Source: Escherichia coli (lineage in GTDB: Bacteria > Pseudomonadota > Gammaproteobacteria > Enterobacterales > Enterobacteriaceae). Taken from it: a stretch of DNA of 64,000 bases. The position numbers are program-made. This document shows, in pieces, positions 48,001 through 51,000 of the stretch (positions are counted from its first letter, which is position 1; the number at the start of each line of letters is the position of its first letter). The DNA lies in assembly GCF_003018235.1 (NCBI RefSeq), contig NZ_CP027437.1. One strand, given 5' to 3'.

Positions 48001-51000
48001 CCTATAAATTATATAAGATTCTAAAATCACTTAAGTTGGACTTGGTATTTTCATATTTTTCAAAGCCAGCCATTTTTGGTACTTTAGCAGCAAAATTTGC
48101 AAGAATACAGAAGCGTTATGCGATGCTTGAAGGGCTTGGTTTTTTCTTTACCAATTCTGGAGGGCAGGTTTCATTAAGGAATAAATTACTAAAGAAAATA
48201 TTAGTATCACTTTACAAATTAAGTTTCAGACATATTGAAAGTCTTATCTTGCTTAATGCGGATGATAAGCGAGACCTTTTAGTTAATGCAAAAATTCAAG
48301 TCAAAAAGGTTCATATATTAGGGGGGATTGGATTAAATATGTCTGATTACCCCTACTGCCCACCGCCTGTTGATCCAGTGTCTTTCATTTTTGTCGCTAG
48401 ATTTTTACAAGAAAAGGGAGTTTATGAATTTATTGAGGCTGCACAAGTAGTCAAAAAGAAATTTCCTGAAACTCATTTTTGCATGCTGGGTCATCTGGAT
48501 CTCCATAATCCGGGGAGCTTAACTACAGAGCGGCTTAATGATTTGAAGTGTAATAACATCATTGAGTTACCTGGCCACGTTGATAACGTGCAGGAGTGGC
48601 TTGCTAAAGCGAGTGTATTTGTATTGCCTTCCTGGCGTGAAGGGTTTCCGAGGAGTACACAGGAGGCGATGGCAATGGGACGTGCTGTCATAACCAGCGA
48701 TGTGCCAGGCTGCCGAGATACAGTAGTTGATGGTGTTAATGGATTTTTGATTAAGCCACGTTCTTCTCATGCGTTAGCGGAAAAAATGCTCTGTTTTTTA
48801 CATCAACCTGAGCTAATTACCCAAATGGGGAATGCAAGTCACCAAATAGCTTTACAACAATTTGACTCATATATAGTTAATTCAAAACTTATGAAAATAC
48901 TGCGCGTAGATGATGAAAATACAAAGTCTAATGACTGTTAAATCATACAAATAAAACGTTATAATAAATACAATTTGGTGGGGAATATTATGGAAAGATT
49001 AAATTTGAGTGAAAAACCTGCTCACTCTTTACAAGAAGCGGCTATTCATTGTGCCAGATATGCTAATATCTTACATCTTGTTAAAGATAAAGTAGTTCTC
49101 GACATTGCCTGCGGCGAAGGATATGGCTCAGCACTATTAATGAAAGCTGGTGCTAAACGAGTTGTGGGGGTGGACATCTCTCAAGAGTCAATTGAGCACG
49201 CAAAGAAACTTTTTGGGGGATATAATGTTGAGTTTATTGTAAGTGATGCATGTACCATCTCAGAGCGTTATGGTGAAGATTTTTTTGATATGGTTGTTTC
49301 AATAGAGACAATAGAACACATCAATACTCCTGAAGTTTTTCTTAGTGCTATCAAAAAAACTGCTAAAGAAAATGCGATTTTCTATATAACTTGCCCTAAT
49401 GATTATTGGTATTATCCAAATGATGAACAATCCAATCCGTACCATGTACGAAAATATACTTTTCAAGAGTTCACCGAACTTAGTACAGTGATTTTGGGAA
49501 AGAATGTTCAATGGGCATATGGTTGTTCTGCTTTTGGATTTTGTACAGTCTCAGCAAATAATCGAGGTTTTGAAAAAATAGGTTCTTCATGGATGGAAAT
49601 AAGCGATTCGGAAAATTCAATTACTGTTTTAAATACAGATATTGACGCAGTTAGTGAAAATAATTGCAGTTTTTTTGTGGGCTTATGGAATGCACCTGAA
49701 ACAAATTTTAGCAATAGTACATTCCCAATAAGTATGAATGCTTATTCGCGCATGACAGAAGAGTTCGAGTCGAATGTAAGTCTGGTACTTCGTGAGGAAC
49801 AGGCAGAAAATAAAAAAGCTATATCAATATTAAAACAAGATATGAAAAAGTTAACAATGGACCTGAGAAAATCAAACCTTTTATTATTCGCATTAAAAAT
49901 CGAAAATGATGCATTGCGTACTAATATTTCCGAATTGCAACAACAGCTTGCCAGGAAAATTGCGATGTATGATGAAGTAACAAATACAAATAATAATTTA
50001 GTAACTACAAATTCATCATTGATGGAAAGAGTGTCACAGATGGAAATTCCATATTATCGATACGTAAGGCTATCCGCCCTTCTTCCGGATTTTTTGAAAA
50101 AAATGATACTTAAAATTATGCGTTTGATCAGGAAATAAAAATGTCGGCACGTTTAAAATTATTACCAGGGGTAAAATCAACTGAATATGTGTATTCAGAC
50201 CTTCATGCTTTGCTCGATTCTAATGCTGAAAGCTCGTTTGGTCCGAACATTGGTAGTGATGGTTCTAACCTAACAATAACATGTTTATCGATGAGTAGAG
50301 TTTTTCTTACTGAAAAACTTGTTAATTCTATATATCAGCATATACCTAATTTCAAAGGTGATATCCTGATTGTTGATAACGGCAGTACATTAGAAGAACT
50401 TTCAGTTTTACAAACTTTAAGTGATAGGATTCCATTACATATTAGGGTTATCGAACTTGGTAATAATTTTGGCGTAAGTGGCGGAAGAAATAAAGCGTTA
50501 GAGCATATAAAAACAGAATGGGCTATGTTTCTTGATAATGATATTTATTTTATAAACAACCCGTTCCCGAGATTGCAAAAGGATATTTCAAAACTTGGCT
50601 GTCATTTCATCAATATGCCATTGCTTGATTCTGATGGAGAAACATTATTCGCAAATGGAGGGAATATTTTCCTCCATATTGATAATGATTCGGTGCATGT
50701 TGGTGCAGGAAGTGCATGCGTCCAGGAAAAAATAACTACATATGATGGTGAGGGCTTCCTTTCTACATTTCTCTTTGGCGGTGCGAGTGTTATTAAAATT
50801 GACTCTCTGAAAAGTTTAGGGAAGTACGATGAAAATATGTTCATTGGATTTGAGGATATTGATTTATCGCTTCGTCTTTACCAGTCAGGAATGAAAGTAG
50901 GTACATGTGGTGCAATATCTTTAATCCATGATCACCCCAAACCTAGTTCTAATAAAGATAAGGATTATGAGAAAATTCGCTTCACGAAAAGTATATTAAA

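What the first reader, a model, noticed from the sequence alone, without database searches (positions are those of the whole stretch)
48990..50138. WbdD-like terminator (methyltransferase + coiled coil + amphipathic C-terminal helix) paired with a short Wzt lacking a carbohydrate-binding domain
The 382-aa protein has a class I SAM-methyltransferase domain, a heptad-rich coiled-coil segment and a basic amphipathic C-terminus (LKKMILKIMRLIRK). This is the architecture of the WbdD chain terminator/molecular ruler of the E. coli O8/O9a systems. In those systems the terminal modification is read by a C-terminal carbohydrate-binding domain on Wzt, but Wzt here is only 250 aa (nucleotide-binding domain only). 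That implies a different coupling between termination and export, or that the methyl group is a non-terminal decoration.
Basis: inference. Interest (0 to 1): 0.65.

Follow-up and report, generated by a model that had tools for sequence, protein, structure and literature searches.

The report
O-antigen capping methyltransferase, ungated exporter
This gene is the chain-capping methyltransferase of the E. coli O101/O162 O-antigen cluster, already described in a 2026 paper; the part not discussed there is that its coiled-coil "ruler" design is paired with an exporter that cannot read the cap.

Summary
Window 48990-50138 encodes a 382-aa protein with a class I SAM-methyltransferase head (aa 1-247), one 116-residue helix (aa 249-364) and a basic amphipathic C-terminal helix. 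The adjacent Wzt (250 aa) is a nucleotide-binding domain only.

The locus is the E. coli O101/O162 rfb cluster, here the O162 genotype. Weerdenburg et al. 2026 (PMC13168486) already showed one MT-dependent O-methyl per long chain, noted the coiled coil, proposed a WbdD-like ruler, and found that MT-disrupted strains still export O-antigen.

What I add:
- The protein is not a WbdD homologue. Only the generic SAM-binding core aligns with O9 and O8 WbdD.
- The MT and the next gene, the GT2+GT4 glycosyltransferase WerT, form a pair conserved across phyla. Distant loci read wzm - wzt(with CBM) - MT - WerT.
- The E. coli transporter belongs to another, CBM-less lineage, closest to the mycobacterial galactan exporter.
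- Helix length in close relatives changes in multiples of seven residues. The common Onovel32 variant carries exactly +14 residues.
- Among linked transporters, about half lack a CBM.

Most likely the MT caps the WerT-made second polymer domain, and export is not gated by the cap. This is a new variant of a known kind, of moderate interest.

The parts
41739..41749 (+). ops (JUMPstart core) element GGCGGTAGCGT upstream of the rfb operon
   Evidence: Exact pattern match; 3 matches in the window against 0.29 expected by chance. That it marks RfaH-dependent antitermination of one long transcript is established knowledge, not tested here.
41880..42896 (+). galE/gne UDP-hexose (HexNAc) 4-epimerase, first gene of the O-antigen cluster
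   Evidence: ORF; RefSeq annotation GalE. It is 52-53% identical to the epimerases that head the minimal wzm-wzt(CBM)-MT-WerT loci L005, L007 and L008.
42930..45146 (+). 738-aa glycosyltransferase (werR) with two GT-B modules; proposed PS1 polymerase
   Evidence: Pfam Glycos_transf_1 at aa 212-306 (E 1e-10) and weakly at aa 625-676 (E 0.023); no CBM. The N-terminal module is about 30% identical to the WerT C-terminal module. The PS1 role is inference.
45143..45922 (+). wzm, ABC transporter permease
   Evidence: Its only NCBIfam match is the mycobacterial galactan exporter permease Wzm/RfbD (241 bits, below the cut-off of 380). It is only 20-23% identical to the Wzm of CBM-type loci that carry an orthologous MT.
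45929..46681 (+). wzt, ABC transporter ATPase, nucleotide-binding domain only (250 aa, no carbohydrate-binding module)
   Evidence: Pfam ABC_tran only. Best PDB relative is mycobacterial RfbE 9qfx (E 3.6e-78) against E about 1e-44 for Aquifex Wzt. NCBIfam galactan_ABC_ATP scores 299 bits. Identity to the NBD of O9 Wzt (431 aa) is 40%. C-terminal extension is 0 aa, against 160-213 aa in CBM-type partners.
46698..47777 (+). 359-aa GT4 glycosyltransferase
   Evidence: NCBIfam GT4 families, including PglJ/PglH-like GalNAc transferases, below cut-offs.
47787..48941 (+). 384-aa GT4 glycosyltransferase
   Evidence: NCBIfam GT4 families; RefSeq annotation 'glycosyltransferase family 4'.
48990..49730 (+). 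MT catalytic head (aa 1-247): class I SAM-dependent methyltransferase
49734..50081 (+). Long helix (aa 249-364, about 170 Å if straight): predicted coiled-coil spacer or ruler
   Evidence: AF2 single helix; no Pro or Gly; family-wide period-3.5 hydrophobicity; heptad-quantised length differences among relatives; exact +14 aa in the Onovel32 allele, inserted after N336, i.e. after nt 49997.
49878..49904 (+). Conserved motif inside the helix (L297, A301 nearly invariant, at least 90%; E305 invariant; consensus LLxxAxxAEN)
   Evidence: E305 is invariant and L297 and A301 are conserved in at least 90% of the 35 homologues, while helix length varies on both sides of the motif. Function unknown; a docking or oligomerisation site is a guess.
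50088..50135 (+). Basic amphipathic C-terminal helix (aa 367-382), preceded by the conserved RYxR...P366 motif; predicted in-plane membrane anchor
   Evidence: Highest hydrophobic moment in the protein, 0.76; net charge +5 for aa 366-382; separate helix in the AF2 model; pattern conserved in the family. Membrane binding was not tested.
50141..52222 (+). werT, 693-aa bifunctional glycosyltransferase (N-terminal GT2, C-terminal GT4); proposed PS2 polymerase and partner of the MT
   Evidence: GT2-type matches at aa 61-263 and GT4 matches at aa 536-681. It starts 2 nt after the MT stop, with AGGAAA inside the last MT codons. It is adjacent to the MT in more than 25 loci across phyla and 50-51% identical to its counterparts in CBM-type loci. 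A published werT point mutant phenocopies MT loss.

Best explanation
The 382-aa protein is the non-reducing-end O-methyltransferase of the E. coli O101/O162 O-polysaccharide. It belongs to its own family of coiled-coil terminators. This family is analogous to WbdD, not homologous to it.

The MT works as a pair with the next gene, werT. WerT's GT2 and GT4 modules build the second polymer domain (PS2, the only repeat with a beta linkage) onto a PS1 core made by the upstream GT-B enzymes. The C-terminal amphipathic helix holds the MT on the cytoplasmic membrane. The helix of about 170 Å places the methyltransferase head away from the membrane-proximal polymerase, so only chains of sufficient length are O-methylated, which stops extension.

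Export differs from the O8/O9a paradigm. The Wzm/Wzt pump comes from a CBM-less lineage and cannot read the cap, so export is not gated by termination. Uncapped PS1-only chains leak out and form the short mode. Capped or uncapped PS1-PS2 chains form the long mode.

Shown by others: the methyl is MT-dependent, there is one per long chain, and export continues without the MT. Shown here: architecture, non-homology to WbdD, the conserved MT-WerT pair, the different transporter lineage, and heptad-quantised helix length. Inferred: ruler function, membrane anchoring, MT-WerT contact, and the assignment of WerT to PS2.
For: Identity of the locus: 99.9% identical to NCTC10973, with wzm/wzt annotated as the O89/O101/O162 family.

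Published experiments (PMC13168486):
- A single O-methyl is found only on long chains with odd HexNAc number, and it is absent in MT-disrupted strains.
- MT-disrupted strains still make LPS O-antigen, PS1 only and unimodal.
- A werT point mutant gives the same profile.

Architecture.

MT-WerT pair: the genes are adjacent (gaps of 0-8 nt in the seven compared reference loci L002-L008) in enterobacteria, Alcaligenes, Comamonas, Variovorax, Pseudomonas, Bradyrhizobium, Paenibacillus and others. Minimal loci such as L005 hold only epimerase-wzm-wzt(CBM)-MT-WerT. So the pair with one transporter is self-sufficient.

Orthology pattern: WerT is 50-51% and MT 34% identical to L005/L008. Wzm is only 20-23% and the Wzt NBD 33-36% identical.

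Transporter lineage: closest to mycobacterial RfbD/RfbE.

Selection on the helix: spacer lengths of 69, 76, 83, 90, 104, 111 and 118 aa in close relatives all equal 6 mod 7. Family-wide hydrophobic periodicity is specific to 3.5.

Natural variant: the Onovel32 MT has exactly +14 aa in the helix, and the paper reports a longer maximum chain length for Onovel32.

WerT and PS2: WerT holds the only GT2 (inverting-family) module in the cluster, and PS2 holds the only beta linkage (PMC7685785).
Against: - No experiment has changed helix length, so ruler function is correlative. The Onovel32 allele also differs at 16% of residues, and its GTs differ too.
- Only 13.7% of Onovel32 lipid-linked chains are methylated, yet long chains still form. 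Capping is therefore not required to end every chain.
- The heptad signal of this sequence alone is not significant.
- The oligomeric state is unknown; the AF2 model is a monomer.
- The published loss of PS2 in MT-disrupted strains may reflect polarity on werT rather than a need for the MT protein (the paper does not discuss polarity).
- The assignment of WerT to PS2 rests on CAZy family mechanism and one natural point mutant.
Confidence: 0.62

Rival explanations
1. The methyl is only a terminal epitope, as with the pyruvate of K. pneumoniae O1 or the 2-O-methyl of V. cholerae Ogawa. Chain length would then be set solely by competition between polymerisation and the CBM-less exporter. The coiled coil would be an inherited feature from CBM-type ancestors, serving at most as a scaffold that recruits WerT.
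For: Both precedents have CBM-less exporters, caps confined to long chains, and no effect of the cap on export (PMC10629545). Most Onovel32 chains are uncapped (13.7% methylated), yet a long mode exists. MT relatives in canonical loci do have CBM partners, so the architecture could be ancestral baggage. MT loss removes PS2 entirely, which fits a scaffold role.
Against: Helix length is still varied in whole heptads within the CBM-less enteric lineage (69 to 118 aa) rather than decaying. All catalytic and C-terminal invariants are kept. MT disruption changes the chain-length distribution. O162 chains are fully capped and O101 chains 85% capped.
Confidence: 0.25
2. The published MT-minus phenotype (loss of PS2, unimodal profile) is mainly a polar effect of IS insertions, frameshifts or nonsense mutations on the translationally coupled werT. 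In that case the MT protein itself is needed only for methylation.
For: The MT stop codon is at 50136-50138 and the werT ATG at 50141. The only Shine-Dalgarno-like sequence (AGGAAA) lies inside the last MT codons. A werT missense mutant gives the same profile as MT disruptions. The paper never mentions polarity. Seventeen of 58 disruptions are IS insertions. The complete genome SCPM-O-B-9504, of the classical O101/O162 type, also has ISKpn26 in the MT.
Against: The operon carries an ops element; that RfaH normally suppresses polarity is established knowledge. This rival is compatible with the best explanation for everything except the scaffold step.
Confidence: 0.35
3. The enzyme methylates something other than the polymer terminus: a nucleotide-sugar precursor, an internal residue, or a non-LPS substrate.
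For: The nearest solved structures are small-molecule methyltransferases such as UbiG and RebM-type enzymes. No family-specific annotation exists.
Against: Mass spectrometry shows exactly one methyl per chain, and only on long chains. The gene lies inside the rfb operon and is fused to a membrane-tethering helix. In more than 25 loci it sits between an O-PS exporter and a polymerase.
Confidence: 0.04

Closest known systems
WbdD of E. coli O9a/O8 (K. pneumoniae O3/O5): coiled-coil chain terminator and molecular ruler
   Same: Both have an N-terminal SAM methyltransferase head, a long helical spacer and a basic amphipathic C-terminus. Both genes lie directly upstream of the polymerase gene. The canonical relatives of this MT show the same order as O8/O9, wzm-wzt-terminator-polymerase. 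Both give a terminal methyl on the O-PS (PMC13168486).
   Different: There is no sequence homology beyond the generic SAM-binding core. Against O9 WbdD: 30% identity over 79 aa, with hhalign aligning 79 columns. Against O8 WbdD: 30% over 57 aa, with hhalign aligning 100 columns. WbdD is not among the top 50-60 structural neighbours. This protein has no kinase domain. Its partner Wzt has no CBM, against 431 and 404 aa for the O9 and O8 Wzt. Uncapped chains are exported here, whereas in O9a they are not (PMC10629545).
K. pneumoniae O1/O2 system (O2a core extended by a second polymer, terminal pyruvate added by WbbZ, CBM-less Wzm/Wzt)
   Same: Both build a two-domain co-polymer, with short chains made of the core repeat only. 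In both, the cap is confined to long chains, the exporter lacks a CBM, and export is independent of the cap (PMC10629545; PMC13168486, draws the same parallel for the hybrid structure).
   Different: The Klebsiella cap enzyme is a pyruvyltransferase and is reported not to control chain length. I did not see a coiled coil described for it. Here the cap enzyme keeps a heptad-quantised helix of about 116 residues and sits next to the second polymerase in the same operon.
V. cholerae O1 Ogawa/Inaba terminal 2-O-methylation
   Same: A terminal O-methyl, an exporter lacking a CBM, and methyltransferase mutants that still export O-antigen (PMC10629545).
   Different: No second polymer domain is involved. 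To my knowledge that methyltransferase has no coiled-coil tail; this was not tested here.
Mycobacterial galactan exporter Wzm/Wzt (RfbD/RfbE, Rv3783/Rv3781; PDB 9qfx and related entries)
   Same: It is the closest solved relative of the Wzt here (E 3.6e-78 over aa 9-245) and the best NCBIfam match for both subunits. Its Wzt is also NBD-only.
   Different: Scores are below NCBIfam's equivalog cut-offs (299 against 400 bits; 241 against 380). The substrate and organism differ, and no capping enzyme is known for galactan (my knowledge).
Uncharacterised wzm-wzt(CBM)-MT-WerT loci of Comamonas, Variovorax, Pseudomonas, Bradyrhizobium and others
   Same: They carry an orthologous MT (33-38% identity, full length in three of the four reference loci) and, in most, WerT (44-51%), in the same order and spacing, with a related epimerase upstream in several.
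   Different: Their Wzt carries a C-terminal Wzt_C module of 160-213 aa, and their Wzm is only 20-23% identical to the E. coli Wzm. Most lack the extra GT738/GT359/GT384 genes.

Membership tests
WbdD terminators (E. coli O8/O9a, K. pneumoniae O3/O5) | N-terminal SAM-dependent methyltransferase catalytic domain | tested here: met
WbdD terminators (E. coli O8/O9a, K. pneumoniae O3/O5) | Sequence or profile homology to WbdD outside the generic SAM-binding core | tested here: not met
WbdD terminators (E. coli O8/O9a, K. pneumoniae O3/O5) | Kinase domain (O9a/O3 type only) | tested here: not met
   No kinase family in Pfam or NCBIfam. The catalytic head ends at aa 247. The published cap is methyl, not methyl phosphate.
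WbdD terminators (E. coli O8/O9a, K. pneumoniae O3/O5) | Extended coiled coil between catalytic head and membrane-proximal C-terminus | tested here: met
   116-residue helix; family-specific 3.5-residue periodicity; heptad-quantised length variation. Caveat: the single-sequence heptad tests are not significant and oligomerisation was not tested.
WbdD terminators (E. coli O8/O9a, K. pneumoniae O3/O5) | C-terminal amphipathic membrane-binding region | tested here: inconclusive
   Predicted only: hydrophobic moment 0.76, net charge +5 (aa 366-382), a conserved pattern and a separate helix. No localisation data.
WbdD terminators (E. coli O8/O9a, K. pneumoniae O3/O5) | Coiled-coil length sets the modal chain length | not testable with these tools
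   Correlation only: the Onovel32 allele has +14 aa and a longer maximum chain length is reported for it.
Prototypical capped-glycan ABC systems (coiled-coil terminator plus CBM-bearing Wzt) | Wzt carries a C-terminal carbohydrate-binding module that reads the cap | tested here: not met
   The 250-aa Wzt has ABC_tran only and 0 aa of C-terminal extension, against 160-213 aa in relatives. No CBM was found in GT738. Uncapped chains are exported.
Prototypical capped-glycan ABC systems (coiled-coil terminator plus CBM-bearing Wzt) | Single non-reducing terminal modification that depends on the terminator gene | not tested
   Taken from PMC13168486: one methyl per long chain, absent in MT-disrupted strains. 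The exact residue and position are not determined there.
CBM-less, cap-independent ABC exporters (K. pneumoniae O1/O2a, V. cholerae O1, mycobacterial galactan) | Wzt is a nucleotide-binding domain only, and export does not require a terminal residue | tested here: met
   Domain content. Export without the cap comes from the literature. Similarity to K. pneumoniae O2a Wzt itself was not tested, because no sequence was at hand.
CBM-less, cap-independent ABC exporters (K. pneumoniae O1/O2a, V. cholerae O1, mycobacterial galactan) | No coiled-coil terminator in the system | tested here: not met
   This cluster has one. The combination is what makes it a variant.
NCBIfam galactan export ABC transporter Wzt/RfbE and Wzm/RfbD (equivalogs) | Score above the curated cut-off | tested here: not met
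   299.3 against 400 bits and 241 against 380 bits. These are the best-matching families, but the proteins are not members.

The most novel reading that the evidence does not exclude
The MT-WerT pair is a portable 'extend-and-cap' cassette that evolved in cap-gated (CBM) systems and has been plugged into an ungated exporter of another lineage. The coiled-coil ruler then sets only the upper, long mode, while the exporter continually removes nascent core chains to give the short mode. E. coli O101/O162 would then be a prototype of a third mode of chain-length control, a ruler without a checkpoint. It would be a natural system for asking what the CBM checkpoint contributes. Because the cassette swaps as a unit (O89 against O101/O162), it would also act as a driver of serotype diversification.
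Probability: 0.35. Interest if true: 0.6.

Novelty: new variant of a known kind. Interest (0 to 1): 0.42.

Why it matters
O101/O162, mostly the Onovel32 variant, is a globally spread, multidrug-resistant bloodstream serogroup and a vaccine target (PMC13168486). It makes up about 6% of complete E. coli genomes (326 of 5,426).

Thirty percent of the Onovel32-carrying clinical isolates have lost this methyltransferase and with it the serum-reactive PS2 domain. Knowing whether that loss is due to the MT itself or to polarity on werT, and what sets chain length, bears directly on antigen design.

Mechanistically, current reviews state that every terminated O-PS studied has a CBM on Wzt (PMC11231755). 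This family shows that the coiled-coil terminator is found with CBM-less pumps about as often as with CBM pumps (13 against 14 loci with a linked Wzt). The two hallmarks are therefore separable, and their separate contributions become testable.

Tried and rejected
- Homology to WbdD: I fetched the O9 (E. coli HS) and O8 (IAI1) clusters and compared directly. Only the SAM-binding core aligns, so membership is rejected.
- PDB sequence search with the MT: no WbdD among the 60 rows shown, out of 140 hits.
- Single-sequence coiled-coil statistics (a/d occupancy, Fourier power) are not significant for the E. coli protein alone. I therefore rely on family-level periodicity and indel quantisation.
- A hidden CBM elsewhere in the cluster: none in Wzt or GT738. 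The other GTs gave only GT4 or GT2 family hits.
- The idea that the short Wzt is a truncated CBM-type Wzt: rejected. Its Wzm and NBD are a different lineage (20-23% and 33-38% identity), and the length is conserved in four genera.
[quoted passage not shown] I could not check whether it already lists this family.
- A literature search for the mycobacterial Wzm/Wzt structure paper found nothing usable.
- A fused MT-WerT AlphaFold run was considered and dropped, because the tool returns no contacts or PAE and an interface could not be read.
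Full report
**What is at the coordinates**

Window 48990-50138 (+) is a single ORF of 382 aa. It lies in a low-GC block (0.34-0.37, against 0.50-0.56 in the flanks) between galF (40532-41437) and gnd (52312-53718).

The 10.5-kb block is 99.9% identical to E. coli NCTC10973 and four other complete genomes. It is about 91% identical to 312 more; in all, 326 of 5,426 genomes carry it.

RefSeq names the transporter genes 'O89/O101/O162 family' and this ORF 'class I SAM-dependent methyltransferase'.

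The gene order is:
- an ops element (41739-41749)
- galE
- a 738-aa GT (werR)
- wzm
- wzt
- a 359-aa GT
- a 384-aa GT
- the MT
- a 693-aa GT (werT)

The seven extra genes after gnd are intact. By the criterion of Liu et al. (PMC7685785), this makes it the O162 genotype rather than O101.

**Checking the observation**

*Methyltransferase head.* Pfam class I methyltransferase families match aa 30-154 (E 7e-18 to 7e-14). AlphaFold2, run with a 35-sequence alignment, gave mean pLDDT 82.6. The model has a catalytic head at aa 1-247, one uninterrupted helix at aa 249-364, a break at the invariant P366, and a last helix at aa 367-380.

*C-terminal tail.* The last 18 residues have the highest hydrophobic moment in the protein (0.76), and aa 366-382 carry a net charge of +5.

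*Coiled coil.* The 'heptad-rich' claim needs a caveat.
- For this sequence alone, a single-register a/d test (p about 0.1-0.3) and the Fourier power at period 3.5 (z about 1) are not significant.
- The family-level evidence is much better. In 92 homologues the spacer shows hydrophobic periodicity specifically at 3.5 residues (mean z 2.4; 49% have z above 2). There is none at 3.6, 3.67, 7, 2 or 5.
- Among the closest relatives the spacer is 69, 76, 83, 90, 104, 111 or 118 residues, all equal to 6 mod 7.
- Six of eight distinct length differences from the E. coli value are multiples of seven. By my binomial estimate the chance of that is about 2e-4.

*Short Wzt.* Wzt (45929-46681) is 250 aa with an ABC_tran domain only and no Wzt_C. 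The next gene starts 17 nt later.

**What is already published**

Weerdenburg et al. 2026 (PMC13168486) studied exactly this locus family. They report the following.
- O101/O162 LPS is bimodal.
- Long chains are a PS1 core extended by PS2.
- A single O-methyl occurs only on long chains: 85% of O101, about 100% of O162 and 13.7% of Onovel32 lipid-linked chains.
- The methyl and PS2 both disappear when the MT gene is disrupted, as it is in 30% of Onovel32-carrying clinical isolates.
- Those strains still make a unimodal, PS1-only O-antigen.
- A point mutation in the downstream GT (werT) gives the same profile.

They note the N-terminal methyltransferase domain and C-terminal coiled coil and propose a WbdD-like ruler in complex with a GT. 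Liu et al. 2019 had already proposed the methyltransferase as a terminator.

Neither paper discusses the missing CBM. The 2026 paper does not consider polarity.

**Is it a WbdD?**

I retrieved the O9 cluster of E. coli HS (WbdD 708 aa, Wzt 431 aa) and the O8 cluster of IAI1 (WbdD 425 aa, Wzt 404 aa).

| Comparison | BLASTP | hhalign with the family profile |
|---|---|---|
| MT vs O9 WbdD | 79 residues at 30% | 79 columns |
| MT vs O8 WbdD | 57 residues at 30% | 100 columns |

The protein works like WbdD in layout, but it is a separate family.

**Comparative genomics of the family**

A protein search found thousands of relatives. Full-length relatives occur down to about 32% identity, with total lengths of 327-666 aa. 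In the alignment the catalytic head and the C-terminal 'RYxR...P + basic helix' are conserved. The helix between them varies in length (44-381 aa). One conserved motif lies inside it (L297 and A301 nearly invariant, E305 invariant).

*Gene neighbourhoods*:
- Plesiomonas, another E. coli serogroup (O89-like), Alcaligenes and Citrobacter have the same layout as the window, with a 250-251-aa Wzt.
- Comamonas, Variovorax, a Bradyrhizobium-like genome and an unnamed metagenome contig (L008) have wzm - wzt(431-466 aa, Pfam Wzt_C) - MT - WerT. This is the same order as wzm-wzt-wbdD-wbdA in O8 and O9.

*Pairwise comparison*:
- E. coli WerT is 50-51% and MT 34% identical to the Comamonas (L005) and L008 proteins.
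- Wzm is only 20-23% identical (E 6e-10 to 3e-4) and the Wzt NBD 33-36%.
- The E. coli pump is instead closest to the mycobacterial galactan exporter RfbD/RfbE: PDB 9qfx at E 3.6e-78, against about 1e-44 for Aquifex Wzt, and NCBIfam scores of 299 and 241 bits, both below cut-off.

The short Wzt is therefore not a truncated CBM-type Wzt. The terminator-polymerase pair and the transporter have different histories.

*Census.* I scanned one genome per species. Among loci with a family member (at least 180 bits) and a Wzt within 10 kb:
- 14 have a Wzt with a 160-213-aa C-terminal extension homologous to the CBMs of the reference loci.
- 13, including the window, have no extension. These are enterics and Alcaligenes, three other proteobacteria with an E. 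coli-type pump, and five Firmicutes.
- Seventeen further loci had no Wzt within reach.

WerT or a WerT-like GT follows the MT directly in most loci.

*Module swapping within E. coli.* The O89-type locus is 93.6% identical in DNA from upstream of galE to about the start of the MT. After that point the MT (46% aa identity) and the last GT (41%) are replaced. The 3' terminator-polymerase module is thus exchanged as a unit.

**A natural length variant**

The dominant clinical allele (Onovel32; strain CPE35) encodes a 396-aa MT. Aligned with the window protein, the length difference is one exact 14-residue insertion after N336, inside the helix. That is two heptads, or about 21 Å.

The 2026 paper reports that Onovel32 strains have a broader distribution with a longer maximum chain length than the O101 reference. 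This is the direction a ruler predicts. It is only a correlation, because the alleles are just 84% identical and the GTs differ too.

**Mechanism proposed**

1. GT738 (two GT-B modules), with GT359 and GT384, builds the all-alpha PS1 polymer on Und-PP-GlcNAc.
2. WerT carries the only GT2 (inverting-family) module in the cluster plus a GT4 module. It adds PS2, the only repeat with a beta linkage.
3. The MT is tethered to the membrane by its amphipathic tail and sits next to WerT. Its head is held about 170 Å away and methylates chains that reach it, ending extension.
4. The CBM-less Wzm/Wzt exports chains whether or not they are capped. Short PS1-only chains therefore appear on LPS, and MT loss does not block export.

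Steps 1-3 are inferred from family mechanism, synteny and the published mutants. Step 4 is shown by the published phenotypes together with the domain analysis here.

The system works most like K. pneumoniae O1, which has an O2a core, a second polymer, a terminal pyruvate and a CBM-less pump. V. cholerae O1 Ogawa also has a terminal methyl and a CBM-less pump (PMC10629545). The difference here is that the cap enzyme retains the ruler hallmark.

**Caveats and rivals**

- The MT stop codon (50136-50138) and the werT start (50141) are 2 nt apart, and the likely ribosome-binding site lies inside the last MT codons. The 'MT is required for PS2' result could therefore be polarity or loss of translational coupling.
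- The complete genome of strain SCPM-O-B-9504, of the classical O101/O162 type, also has ISKpn26 in the MT with werT intact.
- The low capping rate in Onovel32 argues that capping is not the only way chains stop.
- The epitope-only reading, with the coiled coil as scaffold or vestige, remains possible. I give it about 0.25.
- A substrate other than the polymer end is unlikely (about 0.04).

**Verdict**

The feature is real and correctly described, but its function is largely published.

New here:
- the demonstration that it is not a WbdD homologue
- the conserved MT-WerT cassette
- the transporter's separate lineage
- the roughly even split between CBM and CBM-less partners across the family
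- heptad-quantised helix lengths, including the +14-aa clinical allele
- the polarity caveat

It is a new variant of a known kind: a capped-glycan terminator uncoupled from cap-gated export.

Noticed in passing
window 53859-60225 (+): Seven genes lie after gnd: an FAD oxidoreductase, a hypothetical protein, an NAD(P) oxidoreductase, a sugar-phosphate isomerase-like protein, a 118-aa SMR/EamA-like protein, a GT2 and a polytopic membrane protein. Together they look like a lipid-linked-donor / flippase / GT-C periplasmic side-branch system. They are candidates for the 4-deoxy-D-arabino-hexose branch of O162, whose pathway Liu et al. left open. All are intact here, which indicates the O162 genotype. 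The set is syntenic in Plesiomonas (L002 13373-19706, with the GT2 and membrane protein fused into 718 aa) and partly in Variovorax (L006 17338-21236).
   Followed up: partly
window 41739-41749; also 17187-17197 and 16600-16610: The ops/JUMPstart core GGCGGTAGCGT lies 130 nt upstream of galE, with further copies near 17 kb (presumably the colanic-acid operon leader). There are 3 matches against 0.29 expected by chance.
   Followed up: partly
window 45143-46681 (wzm, wzt): The exporter's nearest characterised relatives are the mycobacterial galactan exporter subunits RfbD/RfbE, not the E. coli O8/O9 or Aquifex Wzm/Wzt. The N-terminal 49 residues of Wzt align with RfbE but not with the Aquifex protein.
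   Followed up: partly
L003 (O89-like E. coli locus) compared with window 41800-52300: DNA is 93.6% identical from upstream of galE to about the start of the MT. After that the MT and the last GT are replaced by 46% and 41% identical versions. This marks a recombination boundary at the GT384/MT junction.
   Followed up: partly
L090 (E. coli CPE35, NZ_CP075722.1 3268063-3296606): The Onovel32 rfb cluster, with a truncated wcaM and galF, sits between IS26 and IS903B next to fepA/entD/ybdK, not at the usual galF-gnd site. It looks like a relocated, IS-flanked copy.
   Followed up: no
window 49878-49904 (MT aa 297-305): A conserved motif LLxxAxxAEN (E305 invariant; L297 and A301 in at least 90% of 35 homologues) lies inside the otherwise variable helix. 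It is conserved in both CBM and CBM-less systems, and helix length varies on both sides of it. No explanation yet.
   Followed up: partly
window 42930-45146 and 50141-52222: The N-terminal GT-B module of the 738-aa GT is about 30% identical to the C-terminal GT4 module of WerT, which suggests module duplication or shuffling within the cluster.
   Followed up: no
window 3001-4000 and 24001-26000: Two further dips in GC (0.40 and 0.43-0.46) occur in the otherwise 0.50-0.56 GC flanking region. They were not examined.
   Followed up: no
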